From: the human T2T-CHM13v2.0 reference genome, Homo sapiens
DNA: 64,000 nucleotides
Assembly (NCBI RefSeq): GCF_009914755.1
Contig: NC_060930.1
Direction: 5' to 3' (one strand)
The position numbers and the translations under genes were made by a program. Shown here in pieces: positions 20,700-54,580 of the stretch (position 1 is the stretch's first letter; each line of letters begins with the position of its first letter). The notes below the pieces were generated by a model. That model ran no database searches and was not told the DNA's origin. It saw only the letters and a program-made list of their open reading frames with translations.

Positions 20700-21302
20700 A
20701 GCAGAATCACTCATTTATTACTCACACCATGGAGGAAAAATGAAATAACATTAATTCTCTACTGGGTAATACAAGAAAATTCTAAACTCAGTAGGTTTTT
20801 GGGAAATAGAACTCTTTGTGGAAATATTAGTACAGAGCAATAAATTACTGAGGAAATATCATTAATATAATTTTTTCTTATTAAATAAAGAATTATCCTT
20901 CAGGACGCGGAAAGAAACCTTGGAGGTCTGAAATCTAACATGATTGTTTTACTGACTGTATCATTTGGAAGAAAGAGGTCATCATTCAAAAAGTACTTGA
21001 TTTTTCAAACAAAAGCAGAAGAAAGAAAATGTTGACATATCTTTTTTAGTCAGCCAGAACTTTAATTGCAGGAATTCCATCAGGTAGCACCAATAAAAAA
21101 TAACATAAGATGTTAGGAATAACCGCTGGTAAAATTATTGACAAAAGGAATCAAGGCAGTGAATGAGCTATTGGGTCCATGGTGTCATCATGATCTGCTG
21201 GAGGCCACTGGACATACACAGTAGGTGGTGGGCAGGTGGCCAGACAGAAGGGCGAGTTTGATCAAGACCCTGCTCACAGGGGCTTTTTGGTATCATCTTT
21301 AA
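20700..21302 (-). other. Ancestral ULBP-type 3'UTR exon left downstream of RAET1G
   Basis: Inverted paralog of ULBP2 54066-54680; acceptor shifted by 1 nt; proximal AATAAA mutated. Confidence 0.75.
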
Positions 21303-22134
21303 CTTTCAAAAAGGACACAAATGTTGGTTTAAGAGATGAAGGAGAACCTGGATCACTTTTGCAGGGCAATCTTTCCCTAGGCACTCCACGTCTCAGAGCC
21401 CACTGCACTAAAGGACCCGTTTTTCCCTTGAGCCCCAACCCTGGCACCTGCAGCTTGGAGCAGCCTCTTTCCTCCTTTGTCAAATCACAGTGTCAGCCCA
21501 GGCCCTGCACCTGACCAGGGGATGGAGTGGAGGGGCCTGCAAGACTGAAGCTGGTAGTGATGGGCCTGCTCCCTCACTCAAGGCCCTCTCTACCATCTGA
21601 TGAGAAGGCCTAAAACATGGCAAGGGGTAGGGGGAGCCCATCCAAAGAGAGGGCTCTGTATTCCTGTGTCCTTGGCATTGGGTGGGCCTGCAGGCAAATA
21701 TTCCTCCTTCCCCTTCTTCCTCAGCCTCTCCTCACACTGCAATCAGCACCCATAGCTCTGAAGGTGACTGTCCCTGTTCCACCTTATTCATTCCTGGTCC
21801 AGCCCAGTGGTGCCCATGGACTTAAGCAGCAGCTCAGGTCCCCCGTGTCTGAGTCCACTCTGCTCCTGGCAGGGCCATGAGCGGGCTCAGGATCTGGGGT
21901 GTGCAGGAAGGTGATGGCAAGGGAGCTGCCTCAAGGTCTGGACTCGAACCCCATGGGTCCATGGGACTGACTTTTTAAAAATTTTTTTCATGTGCAGCCT
22001 CTACTCTTCGCCTTCCACCTTAATTCCTGGAACCCAAGCCACTTTCTGTGGGAAGGCAGCCCTGCGCCCCCTCCTTTTCAATTAGGTGTACCAAGGCTCT
22101 CCCAGCCCCCTCCTTCTGGGATTACACTCATAGT

Positions 22135-23075
22135 TGTAGGGACCAGCCCTACAGGGCCTGTGGGTTTTTCTCTTCGTGTGCGGAGATGAGAGATCGTAGA
22201 AATAAAGACACAAGACAAAGAGACGGAAGAAAAGACAGCTGGGCCCAGGGAACCATCAAGATATGGAGACCTGTAGTGGCTCCGAATACCTGGCTGCGCC
22301 GTTATTTATTGTATACAAGGCAAGAGGGCAGGGTAAGGAGTGTGAGTCGTCTCCAATGATAGGTAAAGTCACGCGAGTCACGTGTCCACCAGACAAGGGG
22401 CGCTTCGCTATTTGGTAGCTGAGGCGGAGAGAGAGAGGACAGCTTACGTCATTGTTTCTTCTATGTATTTCTCGGACTTCAATACTTTCACTAATTCTGC
22501 TACCGCTATCTAGAAGGCGGAGCCAGGTGTACAGGGCGGAACATGAAAGTGGACCAGGAGCGTGACCCTGAAGCACAGCATCACAGGGAGACGTTTAGGC
22601 CTCCGGATGGCTGCGGGCAGGCTTGACTGATGTCAGGCCTTCCACAAGAGGTGGTGGAGCAGAGTCTTCTCTAACTCCCCCGGGGAAAGGGAAACTCCTT
22701 TTCCCGGTCTGCTAAGTAACAAGTGCCTTCCCAGGCACTGGCGCTACTGCTAGACTGAGGAGCCCACTACTGGCCCTGTCTGGGCATGACAGAGGGCTCA
22801 CACTCTTGTCTTCTGGTCACTTCTCACCGTGTCCCTTCAGCTCCTGTCTCTGCATGGCCTGGTTTTTCCTGGGTTATAATTGTGGAACAGAGATTATTAT
22901 AACATTGGAAAAAAGAGTAACACTACAGACTAATGATTGATAATATTCATAGATAATCATGTCTGTATTCTACGTCTAATACAACTATTCTTATTTTAAG
23001 TATTTTCTTTATTATACTGGAACAGCTTGTGCCTTCAGTCTCTTGCCTTGGCACCTGGGTGGCTTGCCGCCCACA
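22135..23075 (-). mobile_element. Solo ERV LTR, LTR13 family (HERV-K class), 941 bp
   Basis: Minus strand starts TGTGGGCGGCAAGCCACCCAGGTGCC and ends GGGCTGGTCCCTACA; empty site in ULBP2 at ~53240; AATAAA on minus at 22310-22305. Confidence 0.88.
22256..22418 (-). CDS. RAET1G: RAET1G coding exon 5, LTR-derived cytoplasmic tail (SYQIAKRP...EPLQVSIS*)
   Basis: Pyrimidine tract plus CAG acceptor; 85+264+282+211+163 = 1005 nt = 334 aa + stop; matches the recalled RAET1G C-terminus. Confidence 0.9.
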
Positions 23076-23517
23076 CATATCTCTCTCTTAGCCTCAGAGA
23101 TGGAATCCCCCTTCCCTTGTCATACCTCATGTAAAGCTACCCTGATGCACCTAACCCAATTAAGAGGACTGCCCATGTCTGAATTCCTGCTGCCTGCAGG
23201 CCACACACCCTTCCTGAACAGAAACCTGCTCTGAATCAGGCCTGAACTTGCTAAACCCTCTCAAGCTCAACAGACCCTGAGCCTTGGTATGGCACCACTG
23301 CGCCTTTCCCTCTGGCCTTTGATGGTGAGAATCCATCAGAACTCAGGGCAGAGCTGCCCAGGTCATTTCCAACAAGCAACACAAGGTCTCATTCACCTGT
23401 CTCATGTTAGGATGAGAAGGTCCCAGCCATAGGGAGTGGGACTCTGGGAATTCTCCATCCCTGTCCTCCCTCCTCACCCACCTGCCCTTTGCTCCACTCC
23501 CAATTCTGCCCCCATAC

Positions 23518-23728
23518 CTGTCACTCCAAAGGACTCTCCTCAGCAGCCAGGTAGGATGAAGCAGGGGAGGATGAGGAGGAGGCTGCAGGGACTGAGGGTG
23601 GTGGCCATGGCTTTGGGTCAGACTGTGCCTGGAGCATATGAGGAGACACATGATGAGGAGGCAGCAAAGGATGAGGGTGGTGGCCGTGGCCCTGGGTTGG
23701 GCTGTGCCTGAGGACATGGTGGGTGGTG
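23518..23728 (-). CDS. RAET1G: RAET1G coding exon 4: stalk, hydrophobic segment and Pro/His-rich tail (APPTMSSG...RRVLWSD)
   Basis: CATTTCAG acceptor, GTATGG donor, 211 nt; overlaps track ORF 23343..23717; internal alternative acceptor at 23628. Confidence 0.93.
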
Positions 23729-52772: not shown

Positions 52773-54065
52773 GGAGAGTCCTTTAGAGTGACAGGTACTG
52801 TGGGCAGAATTGGAAGTGGAGCAAGGAGCAGGTGGGTGAGGAGGCAGGATGGGGAAAGAGAATTCCCGGAGTCCCGCCCCTCCCCGTGGCTGGGACCTTC
52901 TCATCCTAACATGAGACAGGTGAATGAGACCTTGTGTTGCCTGTTGGCAATGTTGGCAATGACCTGGGCAGCTCAGCCCTGAGTTCTGATGGATTCTCAC
53001 CTTCAGAGTCCAGAGGGAAAGGGAGGGGCCCATACCAAGGCTCAGGGTCTGTTGAGCTTGAGAAGGTTTAGCAAGTTCAGGCCTGATTCAGAGCAGGTTC
53101 CTATTCAGGAAGGGTGTGTGGCCTGCAGGCAGCAGGAATTCAGACATGGGCAGTCCTCTTAATTGGGTTAGGTGCATCATGGTAGCTTTACATGAGGTGT
53201 GACAGGGGAAGGGGGATTCCATCTCTGAGGCTAAGAGAGATCTGGGTGTAATCCCAGGAGGAGGGGGCTGGGAGAACCTTGGTACACCTAATTGAAAAGG
53301 AGGGAGTGCAGGGCTGCCTTCCCACAGAAAGTGGCTTGGGTTCCAGGAATTAAGGTGGAAGGTGAAGAGTAGAGGCTGCTCAAGAGAAGGATTTTTAAAA
53401 AGTCAGTCCCATGGACATGTGCAGCTCGAGTCTGGGCCCTGAGGCAGCTCCCCTGCCATCATCCTCCTGCACACCCCAGATCCTGAGCCCACTGATGGCC
53501 CTGCCTGGAGCAGAGTGGACTCAGAGGAAGGGGGGTCTGAGCTGCTGCTGGGGTTCCACAGGCACCACTGGGCTGGACAAGGAATTGATAAGGTGGAACA
53601 GGGACAGTCACCTTCAGAGCAATGGGTGCTGCTCCCAGTGTGAGGAGAGGCTCAAGAAGAAGGGGAAAGAAGGATGTTTGCCTGCAGGCCCACCAAAGGC
53701 CAAGGGCACAGGAATATGGAGCCCTCTTTTTGGAAGTCTGCCCCACCCCTTGCCTGTTTTAGGCCTTCACATCAGATCATAGAGAGGGCCTTGAGTGAGG
53801 GCGCGGACCCATCACTACCAGCTTCAGACCTGCAGGCCCCTCCACTCCATCCCCTGGTCAGGTGCAGGGCCTGGGCTGACTCTGTGATGTGACAGAGGAG
53901 GAAAGAGGTAGGTCCAAGCTGCAGTCGCCAGGGTTGAGGCTCAAGGGAAAAATAGGTCCCTTAGTGCAGGGGGCTCTGAGACATAGAGTGACTAGGGAAA
54001 GATTACCCTGGAAAAGTGATCCGGGTTCTCTGCCCCTTAAACCAACATTTGTGTCCTTTCTGAAG

Positions 54066-54580
54066 GTTAAAGCTGATACCAAAAGGCTCCTGTGAGCACG
54101 GTCTTGATCAAACTCGCCCTTCTGTCTGGCCAGCTGCCCACGACCTACGGTGTATGTCCAGTGGCCTCCAGCAGATCATGATGACATCATGGACCCAATA
54201 GCTCATTCACTGCCTTGATTCCTTTTGCCAACAATTTTACCAGCAGTTATACCTAACATATTATGCAATTTTCTCTTGGTGCTACCTGATGGAATTCCTG
54301 CACTTAAAGTTCTGGCTGACTAAACAAGATATATCATTTTCTTTCTTCTCTTTTTGTTTGGAAAATCAAGTACTTCTTTGAATGATGATCTCTTTCTTGC
54401 AAATGATATTGTCAGTAAAATAATCACGTTAGACTTCAGACCTCTGGGGATTCTTTCCGTGTCCTGAAAGAGAATTTTTAAATTATTTAATAAGAAAAAA
54501 TTTATATTAATGATTGTTTCCTTTAGTAATTTATTGTTCTGTACTGATATTTAAATAAAGAGTTCTATTTCCCAAAAACC
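54066..54580 (+). other. ULBP2: ULBP2 non-coding last exon (3'UTR) with miR-34 seed match, AU-rich tract and poly(A) signal
   Basis: TTTCTGAAG acceptor; CACTGCC at 54208-54214; several ATTTA at 54480-54555; AATAAA at 54554-54559 and a second at 54656-54661; 3' end approximate. Confidence 0.8.

What the first reader, a model, noticed from the sequence alone, without database searches (positions are those of the whole stretch)
22135..23075. RAET1G cytoplasmic tail is an exonised LTR13 solo LTR
Seen: the last 54 codons, acceptor, stop and poly(A) signal all lie in a 941-bp LTR in the gene's orientation, and the ULBP2 site (~53240) is empty. The LTR is coding only because the exon-4 duplication shifted the frame past the ancestral stop. 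Two independent events thus built a new C-terminal domain. The long tail is known; I cannot confirm whether its retroviral origin has been described.
Basis: partly seen in the sequence, partly recalled or inferred. Interest (0 to 1): 0.7.

Follow-up and report, generated by a model that had tools for sequence, protein, structure and literature searches.

The report
RAET1G last exon is retroviral LTR
The last 54 amino acids of the human immune ligand RAET1G (ULBP5), together with the splice site and the end of its mRNA, come from a leftover retroviral LTR; the overlap was already listed in a 2007 catalogue, and the tail shows no sign of being conserved for a function.

Summary
Window 22135-23075 (minus strand) is a 941-nt solo LTR of a HERV-K-type family in the gene's orientation. 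It holds the acceptor, the last 53 full codons plus one split codon, the stop and the only AATAAA of RAET1G exon 5. The matching site is empty in ULBP2, RAET1L, RAET1K, ULBP1 and ULBP3.

The name LTR13 and the exon overlap are already in print. Piriyapongsa 2007, Supplementary Table 2, lists NM_001001788 exon 5/5 inside "LTR13_", ERVK, but codes it as a 3'UTR exon.

The two-event story is too short. At least four changes were needed:
- a 79-nt insert in exon 4, which resembles ULBP1/RAET1K/ULBP3 more than RAET1G's own first copy;
- a TAG to TGG change in the shifted frame;
- the LTR insertion;
- a CGG to CAG change that made the acceptor.

The 55-codon frame was already open in the LTR family (16 of 33 other copies). 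Predicted Old World monkey ULBP5 proteins carry the same architecture, so it predates the ape-monkey split. I found no sign of purifying selection on the LTR-coded part. This is a real, tidy case of a known kind, and of moderate interest.

The parts
22135..23075 (-). Solo LTR of an ERVK family (LTR13_ in print), 941 nt, TG...CA ends, in the orientation of RAET1G
   Evidence: Present only in RAET1G relative to ULBP2. 38 other near-full-length matches at 81-89% identity among 40 scored candidates. Six of 11 fetched copies have perfect 6-bp target duplications. Two more diverged copies of this LTR flank a provirus with a PBS, a PPT, and HERV-K env, Rec and integrase matches. Named LTR13_, ERVK, in Piriyapongsa 2007 Supplementary Table 2, row 499.
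23076..23081 (-). Upstream copy of the degenerate 6-bp target-site duplication (GATATG)
   Evidence: The ULBP2/RAET1L empty site reads GATCTG once.
22129..22134 (-). Downstream copy of the target-site duplication (ACTATG), matching the upstream copy at 4 of 6 positions
22419..22440 (-). 3' splice site inside the LTR: a CT-rich tract and the AG at 22420-22419
   Evidence: At the matching position, 25 of 33 other copies have GG, 5 have AG, 2 have GA and 1 has CA. The AG is therefore a CpG to CpA derivative of the family's CGG.
22222..22418 (-). RAET1G exon 5 (terminal). Coding part 22256-22418: last base of codon 281, codons 282-334, and the TGA stop at 22258-22256
   Evidence: Translation. Published RT-PCR reverse primers map at 22246-22266 and 22310-22329; the predicted spliced amplicon is 936 bp against 935 bp reported. 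An antiserum peptide, NNGAARYSEPLQVSIS, is coded here.
22305..22310 (-). The LTR's AATAAA, inside the CDS
   Evidence: It is the only one of 16 hexamer variants between 22312 and 22180. It is intact in 27 of 33 other copies.
22181..22221 (-). T/GT-rich stretch just after the annotated 3' end, a likely downstream element of the LTR's poly(A) site
   Evidence: In the 2007 table the last exon of NM_023080 ends 89 nt before the end of an LTR13. On the copy I took to be that LTR, this lies within 2 nt of the matching place.
23518..23728 (-). RAET1G exon 4 (211 nt), equal to ULBP2 exon 4 (132 nt) plus one 79-nt insert
23571..23649 (-). The extra 79-nt copy (its boundaries can slide within the repeat). 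It shifts the frame by +1 and is read as ...CLLICSRHSLTQSHGHHPQSLQPPPH
   Evidence: Identity to RAET1K 55/62, ULBP1 56/65 and ULBP3 54/65, but ULBP2 55/74 and RAET1G's own first copy 55/69.
23526..23528 (-). TGG codon that keeps the shifted frame open to the end of exon 4
   Evidence: TAG at this place in ULBP2, RAET1L, ULBP1 and RAET1K; TCG in ULBP3.
23618..23630 (-). Alternative acceptor (AG at 23630-23629) and the TGA (23620-23618) of the soluble RAET1G2 form, both inside the extra copy
   Evidence: The annotation gives exons 23518-23628. Reading from 23628 stops at codon 214. Eagle 2009 describes RAET1G2 as due to alternative splice-site use in exon 4.
53239..53244 (+). Empty target site in ULBP2 (GATCTG)
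   Evidence: RAET1L, RAET1K, ULBP3 and ULBP1 are also contiguous across this site.
21304..21305 (-). Relic of the ancestral exon-5 acceptor: AA, where ULBP2 has AG (54064-54065)
20815..20820 (-). Relic of the ancestral poly(A) signal: CACAAA, where ULBP2 has AATAAA (54554-54559)

Best explanation
A solo LTR of the ERVK family LTR13 sits, in sense orientation, in what was the 3'-UTR intron (intron 4) of a ULBP2-like gene. It now serves as the terminal exon of RAET1G.

Shown here:
- The LTR supplies the polypyrimidine tract and the AG acceptor. The AG is a CpG to CpA derivative of the family's CGG.
- It supplies a reading frame that was already open for 55 codons in the LTR family.
- It supplies the stop, the only AATAAA, and a 3' end.
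- Translation reaches the LTR only because a 79-nt insert in exon 4 shifts the frame past the ULBP2-type stop, and because a TAG in that shifted frame is TGG in RAET1G.
- The old terminal exon has decayed: its acceptor is AG to AA and its signal is AATAAA to CACAAA.
- Predicted macaque and green-monkey ULBP5 proteins have the same architecture.

Inferred:
- All these steps predate the ape / Old World monkey split. Their order is unknown.
- The annotated 3' end is the LTR13 family's own poly(A) site. This rests on one other RefSeq mRNA that ends at the matching place in another copy.
- The main selected effect of the LTR is to end the transcript.
- The 54 LTR-coded residues are a translated but largely unconstrained appendage. 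I put this at about 0.6. Reviews say part of the protein loses the tail on conversion to a GPI-linked form.
For: Insertion and empty sites.

LTR nature:
- 38 other near-full-length matches among 40 scored candidates, and 486 pattern matches against 1 for the control.
- Perfect 6-bp target duplications in 6 of 11 fetched copies.
- A provirus, L025, with two more diverged copies of this LTR that are 94.7% alike, a perfect duplication ATTCTC, a PBS-like TGGCGC... 2 nt after the LTR, and a purine tract before the 3' LTR.
- Internal frames of L025 match Pfam HERV-K_env_2 (62.9 and 57.3 bits, cut-off 22), HERV-K_REC (35.1, cut-off 27.5) and rve (56.3, cut-off 32.6).

Name: Piriyapongsa 2007, Supplementary Table 2, row 499.

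Acceptor, frame and AATAAA across 33 other copies.

Exon 4 insert, the old stop and TAG/TGG.

Decayed old exon.

RNA use: primers of two papers lie in the exon.

Protein: the antiserum was raised partly against the LTR-coded C-terminal peptide.

Monkey proteins.

3' end: NM_023080 ends at the matching place in another LTR13.

No constraint:
- Divergence of the coding stretch from other copies is 0.146, against 0.137 among the non-genic copies. This copy ranks 24 of 32.
- The nonsynonymous to synonymous count ratio is 2.24, against 2.17.
- Human to green-monkey identity is 85% in the LTR part, against 88-89% in the alpha domains.
Against: - The target duplication at this copy matches at only 4 of 6 positions.
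- The provirus used to prove LTR status carries LTRs only 78-79% identical to this copy. It is probably a sister subfamily.
- The cleavage site lies 83 nt after AATAAA, which is unusually far. A fold of the intervening RNA is not unusual (z -1.34), and I saw no 3'-end sequencing data.
- The monkey proteins are gene predictions.
- The selection tests have little power (159 nt). The frame has stayed open in human and monkey lineages, while 17 of 33 non-genic copies have not kept the 55-codon frame (15 end early, 2 read past the family stop). That leaves room for weak constraint.
- The antiserum was raised against two peptides mixed together, so by itself it does not prove that the LTR-coded part is present in the native protein.
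Confidence: 0.9

Rival explanations
1. The LTR-coded 54 residues are a selected functional domain, for example one that holds RAET1G in the ER/Golgi or controls its conversion to the GPI form, rather than a neutral appendage.
For: - The frame is open in human and in predicted macaque and green-monkey proteins, while 17 of 33 non-genic copies have not kept the 55-codon frame.
- Eagle 2009 found RAET1G1 mainly inside the cell and called the tail unique among NKG2D ligands.
Against: - There is no excess conservation: divergence 0.146 against 0.137, and nonsynonymous to synonymous ratio 2.24 against 2.17.
- Identity to the monkey protein is 85%, no higher than elsewhere in the protein.
- Human has lost the last two residues through TGG to TGA.
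- Reviews report that ULBP5 can also be expressed GPI-anchored, that is, without the tail.
- No Pfam or motif test was run on the tail.
Confidence: 0.25
2. The extra 79 nt in exon 4 is a plain in-place tandem duplication that later diverged, not a patch of paralogue-like or ancestral-like sequence.
For: - The two copies are adjacent, in register, and spaced by exactly 79 nt.
- The flanks on both sides are ULBP2-like: copy 1 matches ULBP2 at 74/79, and the downstream 53 nt at 49/53.
Against: - Copy 2 matches copy 1 at only 55/69 and ULBP2 at 55/74, but RAET1K at 55/62 and ULBP1 at 56/65.
- By my reading of the alignment, about 10 of 11 sites that separate the ULBP2 type from the ULBP1/RAET1K/ULBP3 type carry the latter state in copy 2.
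- A duplication after the RAET1G-ULBP2 split should give two ULBP2-like copies, unless gene conversion followed.
Confidence: 0.35
3. The LTR was already present in the common ancestor of the ULBP2/RAET1G group and was lost from the paralogues.
For: None found. It is possible only in principle.
Against: Five of five paralogous sites (ULBP2, RAET1L, RAET1K, ULBP3, ULBP1) are contiguous, with no LTR remnant. ULBP2 and RAET1L show a single copy of the target hexamer. Solo LTRs are not known to excise precisely (established knowledge).
Confidence: 0.02
4. Exon 5 is an annotation artefact or a rare cancer-only splice, and the normal protein ends elsewhere.
For: - The 2007 catalogue coded this exon as a 3'UTR exon.
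- Other annotated transcripts end at 22326 or skip part of exon 4 (given annotation).
- The expression data I read come mostly from tumour lines.
Against: - Two independent RT-PCR designs have reverse primers in this exon, and one reports a product size that fits the spliced mRNA (936 bp predicted against 935 reported).
- The antiserum against tail peptides stained normal gut epithelium.
- The ancestral terminal exon has lost its AG and its AATAAA.
- Monkey gene models use the same exon.
Confidence: 0.03

Closest known systems
LTR-derived exons catalogued by Piriyapongsa et al. 2007 (BMC Genomics 8:291), including their worked case IL22RA2
   Same: An intronic LTR becomes an exon once a splice site is in place. 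This very exon (NM_001001788 exon 5/5, LTR13_, ERVK, both on the minus strand, full overlap) is row 499 of their Supplementary Table 2.
   Different: They coded it as a 3'UTR exon. Neither the gene name nor LTR13 occurs in their file of LTR-derived coding exons, and neither LTR13 nor the accession occurs in the main text. IL22RA2 is an internal alternative exon from a MaLR element, whereas this is a terminal exon that also ends the mRNA.
LTR13 / HERVK13 solo LTRs (the HML-4 group; that grouping is recalled, not tested), for example the one ending NM_023080
   Same: Same repeat family. The host mRNA ends at the matching place, 87-89 nt before the LTR's 3' end.
   Different: In NM_023080 the LTR contributes only 3'UTR (code 4U). 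Here it is entered by splicing and is translated.
ULBP2 and RAET1L (ULBP6), the GPI-anchored sister genes
   Same: 88-89% identical genomic sequence, the same exon plan, and near-identical ectodomain. RAET1G still holds the ULBP2-type C-terminus ...ILPGC* in the old frame.
   Different: They have no 79-nt insert and no LTR, a TAG in the shifted frame, and an intact old terminal exon with AG and AATAAA.
MICA A5.1/*008 frameshift allele
   Same: An insertion in the transmembrane exon of an NKG2D ligand changes the frame and so the way the protein is anchored (review passage).
   Different: It is a polymorphic short insertion that truncates the protein. It is not a fixed 79-nt insert that extends the protein into a retroviral exon.

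Membership tests
Solo LTR of an endogenous retrovirus (ERVK, LTR13) | Discrete element with TG...CA ends | tested here: met
   It starts TGTGGG at 23075 and ends CCCTACA at 22135. The same ends are seen in 11 of 11 fetched copies, three of which end TATA.
Solo LTR of an endogenous retrovirus (ERVK, LTR13) | Dispersed multi-copy family whose copies share the same boundaries | tested here: met
   38 other matches spanning at least positions 1-928 of 941, at 81-89% identity, among 40 scored of 614 candidates. 486 pattern matches against 1 for the control.
Solo LTR of an endogenous retrovirus (ERVK, LTR13) | 6-bp target-site duplication (the class II / ERVK type) | tested here: inconclusive
   At this copy, GATATG against ACTATG matches at 4 of 6 positions. 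In the family, 6 of 11 copies have a perfect 6-bp duplication, as does the provirus L025.
Solo LTR of an endogenous retrovirus (ERVK, LTR13) | Copies flank a retroviral interior with a PBS, a PPT and retroviral genes | tested here: met
   One provirus, L025, was examined. Its LTRs are 78-79% identical to this copy. It has a PBS-like and a PPT-like tract, and Pfam matches to HERV-K_env_2, HERV-K_REC and rve above the cut-offs; RVT_1 is below its cut-off.
Solo LTR of an endogenous retrovirus (ERVK, LTR13) | No interior here, with host sequence on both sides | tested here: met
   Both flanks continue the ULBP2-homologous intron.
Solo LTR of an endogenous retrovirus (ERVK, LTR13) | Assigned to LTR13 by a repeat library (RepeatMasker/Dfam) | not testable with these tools
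   No repeat library is on hand. From print: LTR13_, ERVK, 942 bp, over exon 5/5 of NM_001001788, using hg17 refGene.
Exonised transposable element forming a coding terminal exon | Acceptor, coding sequence, stop and poly(A) signal all lie inside the element | tested here: met
   AG at 22420-22419, coding 22256-22418, TGA at 22258-22256, AATAAA at 22310-22305, all within 22135-23075.
Exonised transposable element forming a coding terminal exon | The exon is used in RNA | tested here: met
   There are no RNA reads here. Published RT-PCR primers map inside the exon. [quoted passage not shown]
Exonised transposable element forming a coding terminal exon | The element-coded peptide is made | tested here: inconclusive
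   The antiserum was raised against a mix of the LTR-coded peptide and an exon-4 peptide. I searched for no mass-spectrometry data.
Exonised transposable element forming a coding terminal exon | Kept by selection (exaptation in the strict sense) | tested here: not met
   No excess conservation against non-genic copies or against the monkey protein. The power of these tests is low.

The most novel reading that the evidence does not exclude
Both special forms of ULBP5 were built in a catarrhine ancestor by a chain of at least four small accidents. The forms are the membrane-spanning form with its 100-residue tail and the secreted RAET1G2 form. The accidents are a 79-nt patch of ULBP1/RAET1K-like exon-4 sequence (from another family member or an older state), a TAG to TGG change, an LTR13 insertion, and a CpG decay that switched on a dormant acceptor in front of a frame the LTR family already carried open. 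On this reading the LTR-coded half of the tail is not neutral: it controls intracellular retention or the choice between the transmembrane and GPI forms.
Probability: 0.2. Interest if true: 0.55.

Novelty: already known. Interest (0 to 1): 0.3.

Why it matters
ULBP5/RAET1G is one of eight human ligands of the NK-cell receptor NKG2D, and the field calls its long tail "unique". Knowing that the distal half is a retroviral LTR read in a pre-existing open frame, and the proximal half is frame-shifted exon 4, has three consequences:
- It explains why the tail has no relatives.
- It argues for caution before looking for motifs in it.
- It shows that the same 79-nt insert also created the secreted RAET1G2 form.

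It is also a clean teaching case of how many small steps an LTR exonisation needs. It does not open a new kind of mechanism. The exon-LTR overlap has been in a public table since 2007 and is visible in any repeat track.

Tried and rejected
- A search for proviral copies with the pattern LTR end plus a lysine-type PBS found 19 sites. None of the 12 that were fetched matches this LTR, so they belong to other HERV-K groups.
- My first 28-nt probe matched only the window, because this copy has a 1-nt deletion there. A second probe worked.
- I folded the RNA between AATAAA and the annotated end to see whether a hairpin brings them together: -25.8 kcal/mol, z -1.34, with 17 of 200 shuffles as good. 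This gives no support.
- Complex prediction and the structure tools were not used, because nothing here turns on them.
- Ohashi 2010 (JBC) is not held. What I say about GPI processing rests on one-sentence statements in two reviews.
- Bacon 2004 and Radosavljevic 2002, which first described the gene, were not seen. They may already mention the exon-4 duplication.
- The 2026 TE-gene chimera paper has no RAET1G row in the 4 supplementary files held, one of which was cut when stored.
- Full-text searches: RAET1G + LTR, 0 papers. RAET1G + transposable, 0. RAET1G + "endogenous retrovir", 1, which I read and found unrelated. ULBP5 + LTR, 2: one on cattle, read and unrelated, and one seen in the listing only. 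RAET1G + frameshift, 5, listing only. RAET1G + primates, 7, listing only. Supplements are not covered by these searches.

Full report
**What is there**

The annotated RAET1G coding sequence translates without interruption to 334 residues. Exon 5 (22222-22418, minus strand) gives the last base of codon 281, codons 282-334 (YQIAKRPL...PLQVSIS) and the TGA at 22258-22256. Its acceptor AG (22420-22419) follows a CT-rich tract. The only poly(A) hexamer, out of 16 variants scanned between 22312 and 22180, is AATAAA at 22310-22305. That hexamer lies inside the coding sequence. The annotated 3' end is 83 nt further on.

**It is an insertion, and a solo LTR**

blastn of the RAET1G region against ULBP2 is collinear except for two things. 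One is a block between RAET1G 23082 and 22130, which corresponds to 2 nt in ULBP2 (53240/53243). The other is a doubly aligned stretch in exon 4.

The block begins TGTGGG and ends CCCTACA. It is flanked by GATATG and ACTATG, where ULBP2 and RAET1L have one GATCTG.

A search of the same genome with ULBP2's exon-4-to-exon-5 stretch found RAET1L (97%), RAET1K (78%), ULBP3 (73%) and ULBP1 (73%), each as one contiguous match. RAET1G came back in three pieces. Both the LTR and the exon-4 insert are therefore private to RAET1G among six family members.

Searching the genome with the 941 nt gave 614 first-look candidates. 40 were scored, giving 41 matches: this copy itself, 38 other matches spanning at least positions 1-928 of 941 at 81-89% identity, and two pieces of one interrupted copy. 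A 28-nt stretch of the element matches 486 places at up to 3 mismatches, against 1 for the reversed control. Of 11 copies fetched with flanks, 6 have perfect 6-bp target duplications.

Two copies 5.4 kb apart on one strand (L025) turned out to flank a deleted provirus:
- the two LTRs are 94.7% alike;
- the target duplication ATTCTC is perfect;
- TGGCGCTCCGACATGGGGC lies 2 nt after the 5' LTR;
- AAAAAGGGGGCAGA lies before the 3' LTR;
- unaltered open frames inside match Pfam HERV-K_env_2, HERV-K_REC and the integrase core above their cut-offs, and RVT_1 below its cut-off.

Those LTRs are only 78-79% identical to the RAET1G copy, so they are probably a sister subfamily.

I have no repeat library, so the name comes from print. 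Piriyapongsa et al. 2007, Supplementary Table 2, row 499, lists NM_001001788 exon 5/5 (hg17 chr6:150330127-150330324) as fully covered by "LTR13_", ERVK (150330040-150330981), both on the minus strand.

**Is it in print?**

Yes, as that table row. It is coded there as "5 = 3'UTR exon". Neither the gene name nor LTR13 occurs in the paper's file of LTR-derived coding exons, and neither LTR13 nor the accession occurs in the main text.

Eagle et al. 2009 call the tail unique. The words retrovir-, repeat and duplication occur nowhere in that text.

Full-text searches found nothing that links RAET1G or ULBP5 to an LTR, a transposable element or an endogenous retrovirus. The searches do not reach supplements or subscription papers. 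I did not see the two papers that first described the gene.

**The frame story needs more than two events**

Exon 4 of RAET1G equals ULBP2 exon 4 plus one 79-nt insert and nothing else. In the old frame RAET1G still reads ...ILPCFILPGC*, the ULBP2-type end. The insert moves translation to the frame that gives ...HPPLLHPTWLLRRVLWSD.

In that frame ULBP2 reads ...RRVL*SD. The TAG is shared by RAET1L, ULBP1 and RAET1K (ULBP3 has TCG), whereas RAET1G has TGG at 23528-23526. Without that change the protein would stop three codons before the splice.

The acceptor needed a change too. At the matching place, 25 of 33 other LTR copies read CGG, 5 read CAG, 2 GA and 1 CA. The RAET1G AG is the CpG-decay product of a site that is one step from being an acceptor.

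The reading frame itself needed nothing. In 16 of 33 other copies it is open for exactly 55 codons, down to a family-wide TAG. Of the rest, 15 end earlier (most carry indels) and 2 read on past the family stop.

**The "duplication" is odd**

The first copy matches ULBP2 at 74/79. The second matches ULBP2 at 55/74 and the first copy at 55/69, but RAET1K at 55/62, ULBP1 at 56/65 and ULBP3 at 54/65. The 53 nt after it are ULBP2-like again (49/53).

So a patch with the states of the other branch of the family sits between ULBP2-like flanks. There are two possible explanations. It may have been copied from a paralogue. Or it may be an old duplicate whose neighbour was later converted by ULBP2. I cannot tell which.

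The patch also holds the alternative acceptor (AG at 23630-23629) and the TGA (23620-23618) that make the secreted RAET1G2 form.

**The old 3' end has decayed**

The stretch homologous to ULBP2 exon 5 lies about 0.8 kb beyond the LTR at 89% identity. Its acceptor is AA instead of AG (21305-21304), and its AATAAA is CACAAA (20820-20815).

**Use in RNA and protein**

The RAET1G1 reverse primer of Eagle 2009 maps to 22246-22266, across the stop and 39-59 nt past the AATAAA. [quoted passage not shown]

A second paper's reverse primer maps to 22310-22329. It predicts a 936-bp product on the spliced mRNA, against 935 bp reported.

Eagle's antiserum was raised against two peptides, NNGAARYSEPLQVSIS (LTR-coded) and SHGHHPQSLQPPPHPP (shifted exon 4).

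In the 2007 table, the last exon of NM_023080 ends 89 nt before the end of another LTR13. On the copy I took to be that one, this falls within 2 nt of the place matching RAET1G's 3' end and 86 nt after its AATAAA. This suggests a genuine family poly(A) site.

**Age and constraint**

A protein search with the 53 LTR-coded residues found predicted ULBP5 of Macaca mulatta, M. nemestrina and Chlorocebus sabaeus, at 85% identity over the full length. These proteins carry the same shifted exon-4 sequence, including the W, and end ...SWW at the family stop. Human has TGA in place of the first TGG. The whole architecture therefore predates the ape / Old World monkey split. That rests on gene predictions.

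Identity between human and green monkey by region:

| Region | Identity |
|---|---|
| Signal / exon 1 | 86% |
| Alpha-1 | 88% |
| Alpha-2 | 89% |
| Exon 4, first copy | 92% |
| Exon 4, shifted part | 86% |
| LTR part | 85% |

Against 31 non-genic copies, the coding stretch of the RAET1G LTR is no better conserved: divergence is 0.146 against 0.137, rank 24 of 32. Its nonsynonymous to synonymous count ratio is the same, 2.24 against 2.17. I see no evidence that the LTR-coded residues are under purifying selection, though the tests are weak.

**Verdict**

It is a member of a well-known kind, LTR exonisation giving a terminal exon, and the exon-LTR overlap is already tabulated.

What I add is this:
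- the four-step path;
- the open frame already present in the LTR family;
- the paralogue-like nature of the exon-4 insert, and its role in the soluble isoform;
- the decay of the old terminal exon;
- the catarrhine age;
- the lack of detectable constraint.

Noticed in passing
window 23571-23649 (minus strand): The extra 79 nt in RAET1G exon 4 is closer to ULBP1, RAET1K and ULBP3 exon 4 (83-89%) than to RAET1G's own first copy (80%) or to ULBP2 (74%), although both flanks are ULBP2-like. This points to exchange between family members, or to an old duplicate that was partly converted.
   Followed up: partly
window 23618-23630 (minus strand): The acceptor and the stop codon that define the secreted RAET1G2 isoform both lie inside that extra 79-nt copy. 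One insert therefore gave rise to both the long-tailed and the soluble form.
   Followed up: yes
window 21304-21305 and 20815-20820 (minus strand): The relic of the ULBP2-type terminal exon of RAET1G has lost its acceptor (AG to AA) and its poly(A) signal (AATAAA to CACAAA).
   Followed up: yes
window 22256-22258; proteins P0001, P0003, P0004: Predicted macaque and green-monkey ULBP5 proteins end ...SWW at the LTR family's own TAG. Human has TGA in place of the first TGG and is two residues shorter.
   Followed up: partly
protein P0009: A predicted gibbon protein named [quoted passage not shown] joins a Rec/Env N-terminus to the same LTR13 reading frame (GKGPLSSGHVTHVTLPIIGDDSHSLP...). Another gene model therefore uses this LTR frame as coding sequence.
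   Followed up: no
L050 (G000:C8:146233000-146234250); Piriyapongsa 2007 Supplementary Table 2, row 715: The last exon of NM_023080 ends 89 nt before the end of an LTR13, at the place matching RAET1G's 3' end and 86 nt after that copy's AATAAA. The family's cleavage site seems to lie unusually far from its signal.
   Followed up: partly
L025 (G000:C4:77008600-77016000, minus strand): A 6.4-kb deleted provirus of a sister LTR13-like subfamily. Its LTRs are 94.7% alike, it has a perfect 6-bp target duplication, and it carries broken env, Rec-like and integrase frames.
   Followed up: partly
window 22647-22932: The RefSeq "silencer" feature in the supplied annotation lies wholly inside the U3 side of this LTR.
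   Followed up: no
L002 (G000:C8:144202377-144206332): A second, inverted and more diverged (75%) copy of the same LTR family lies about 0.7 kb upstream of the full-length copy.
   Followed up: no
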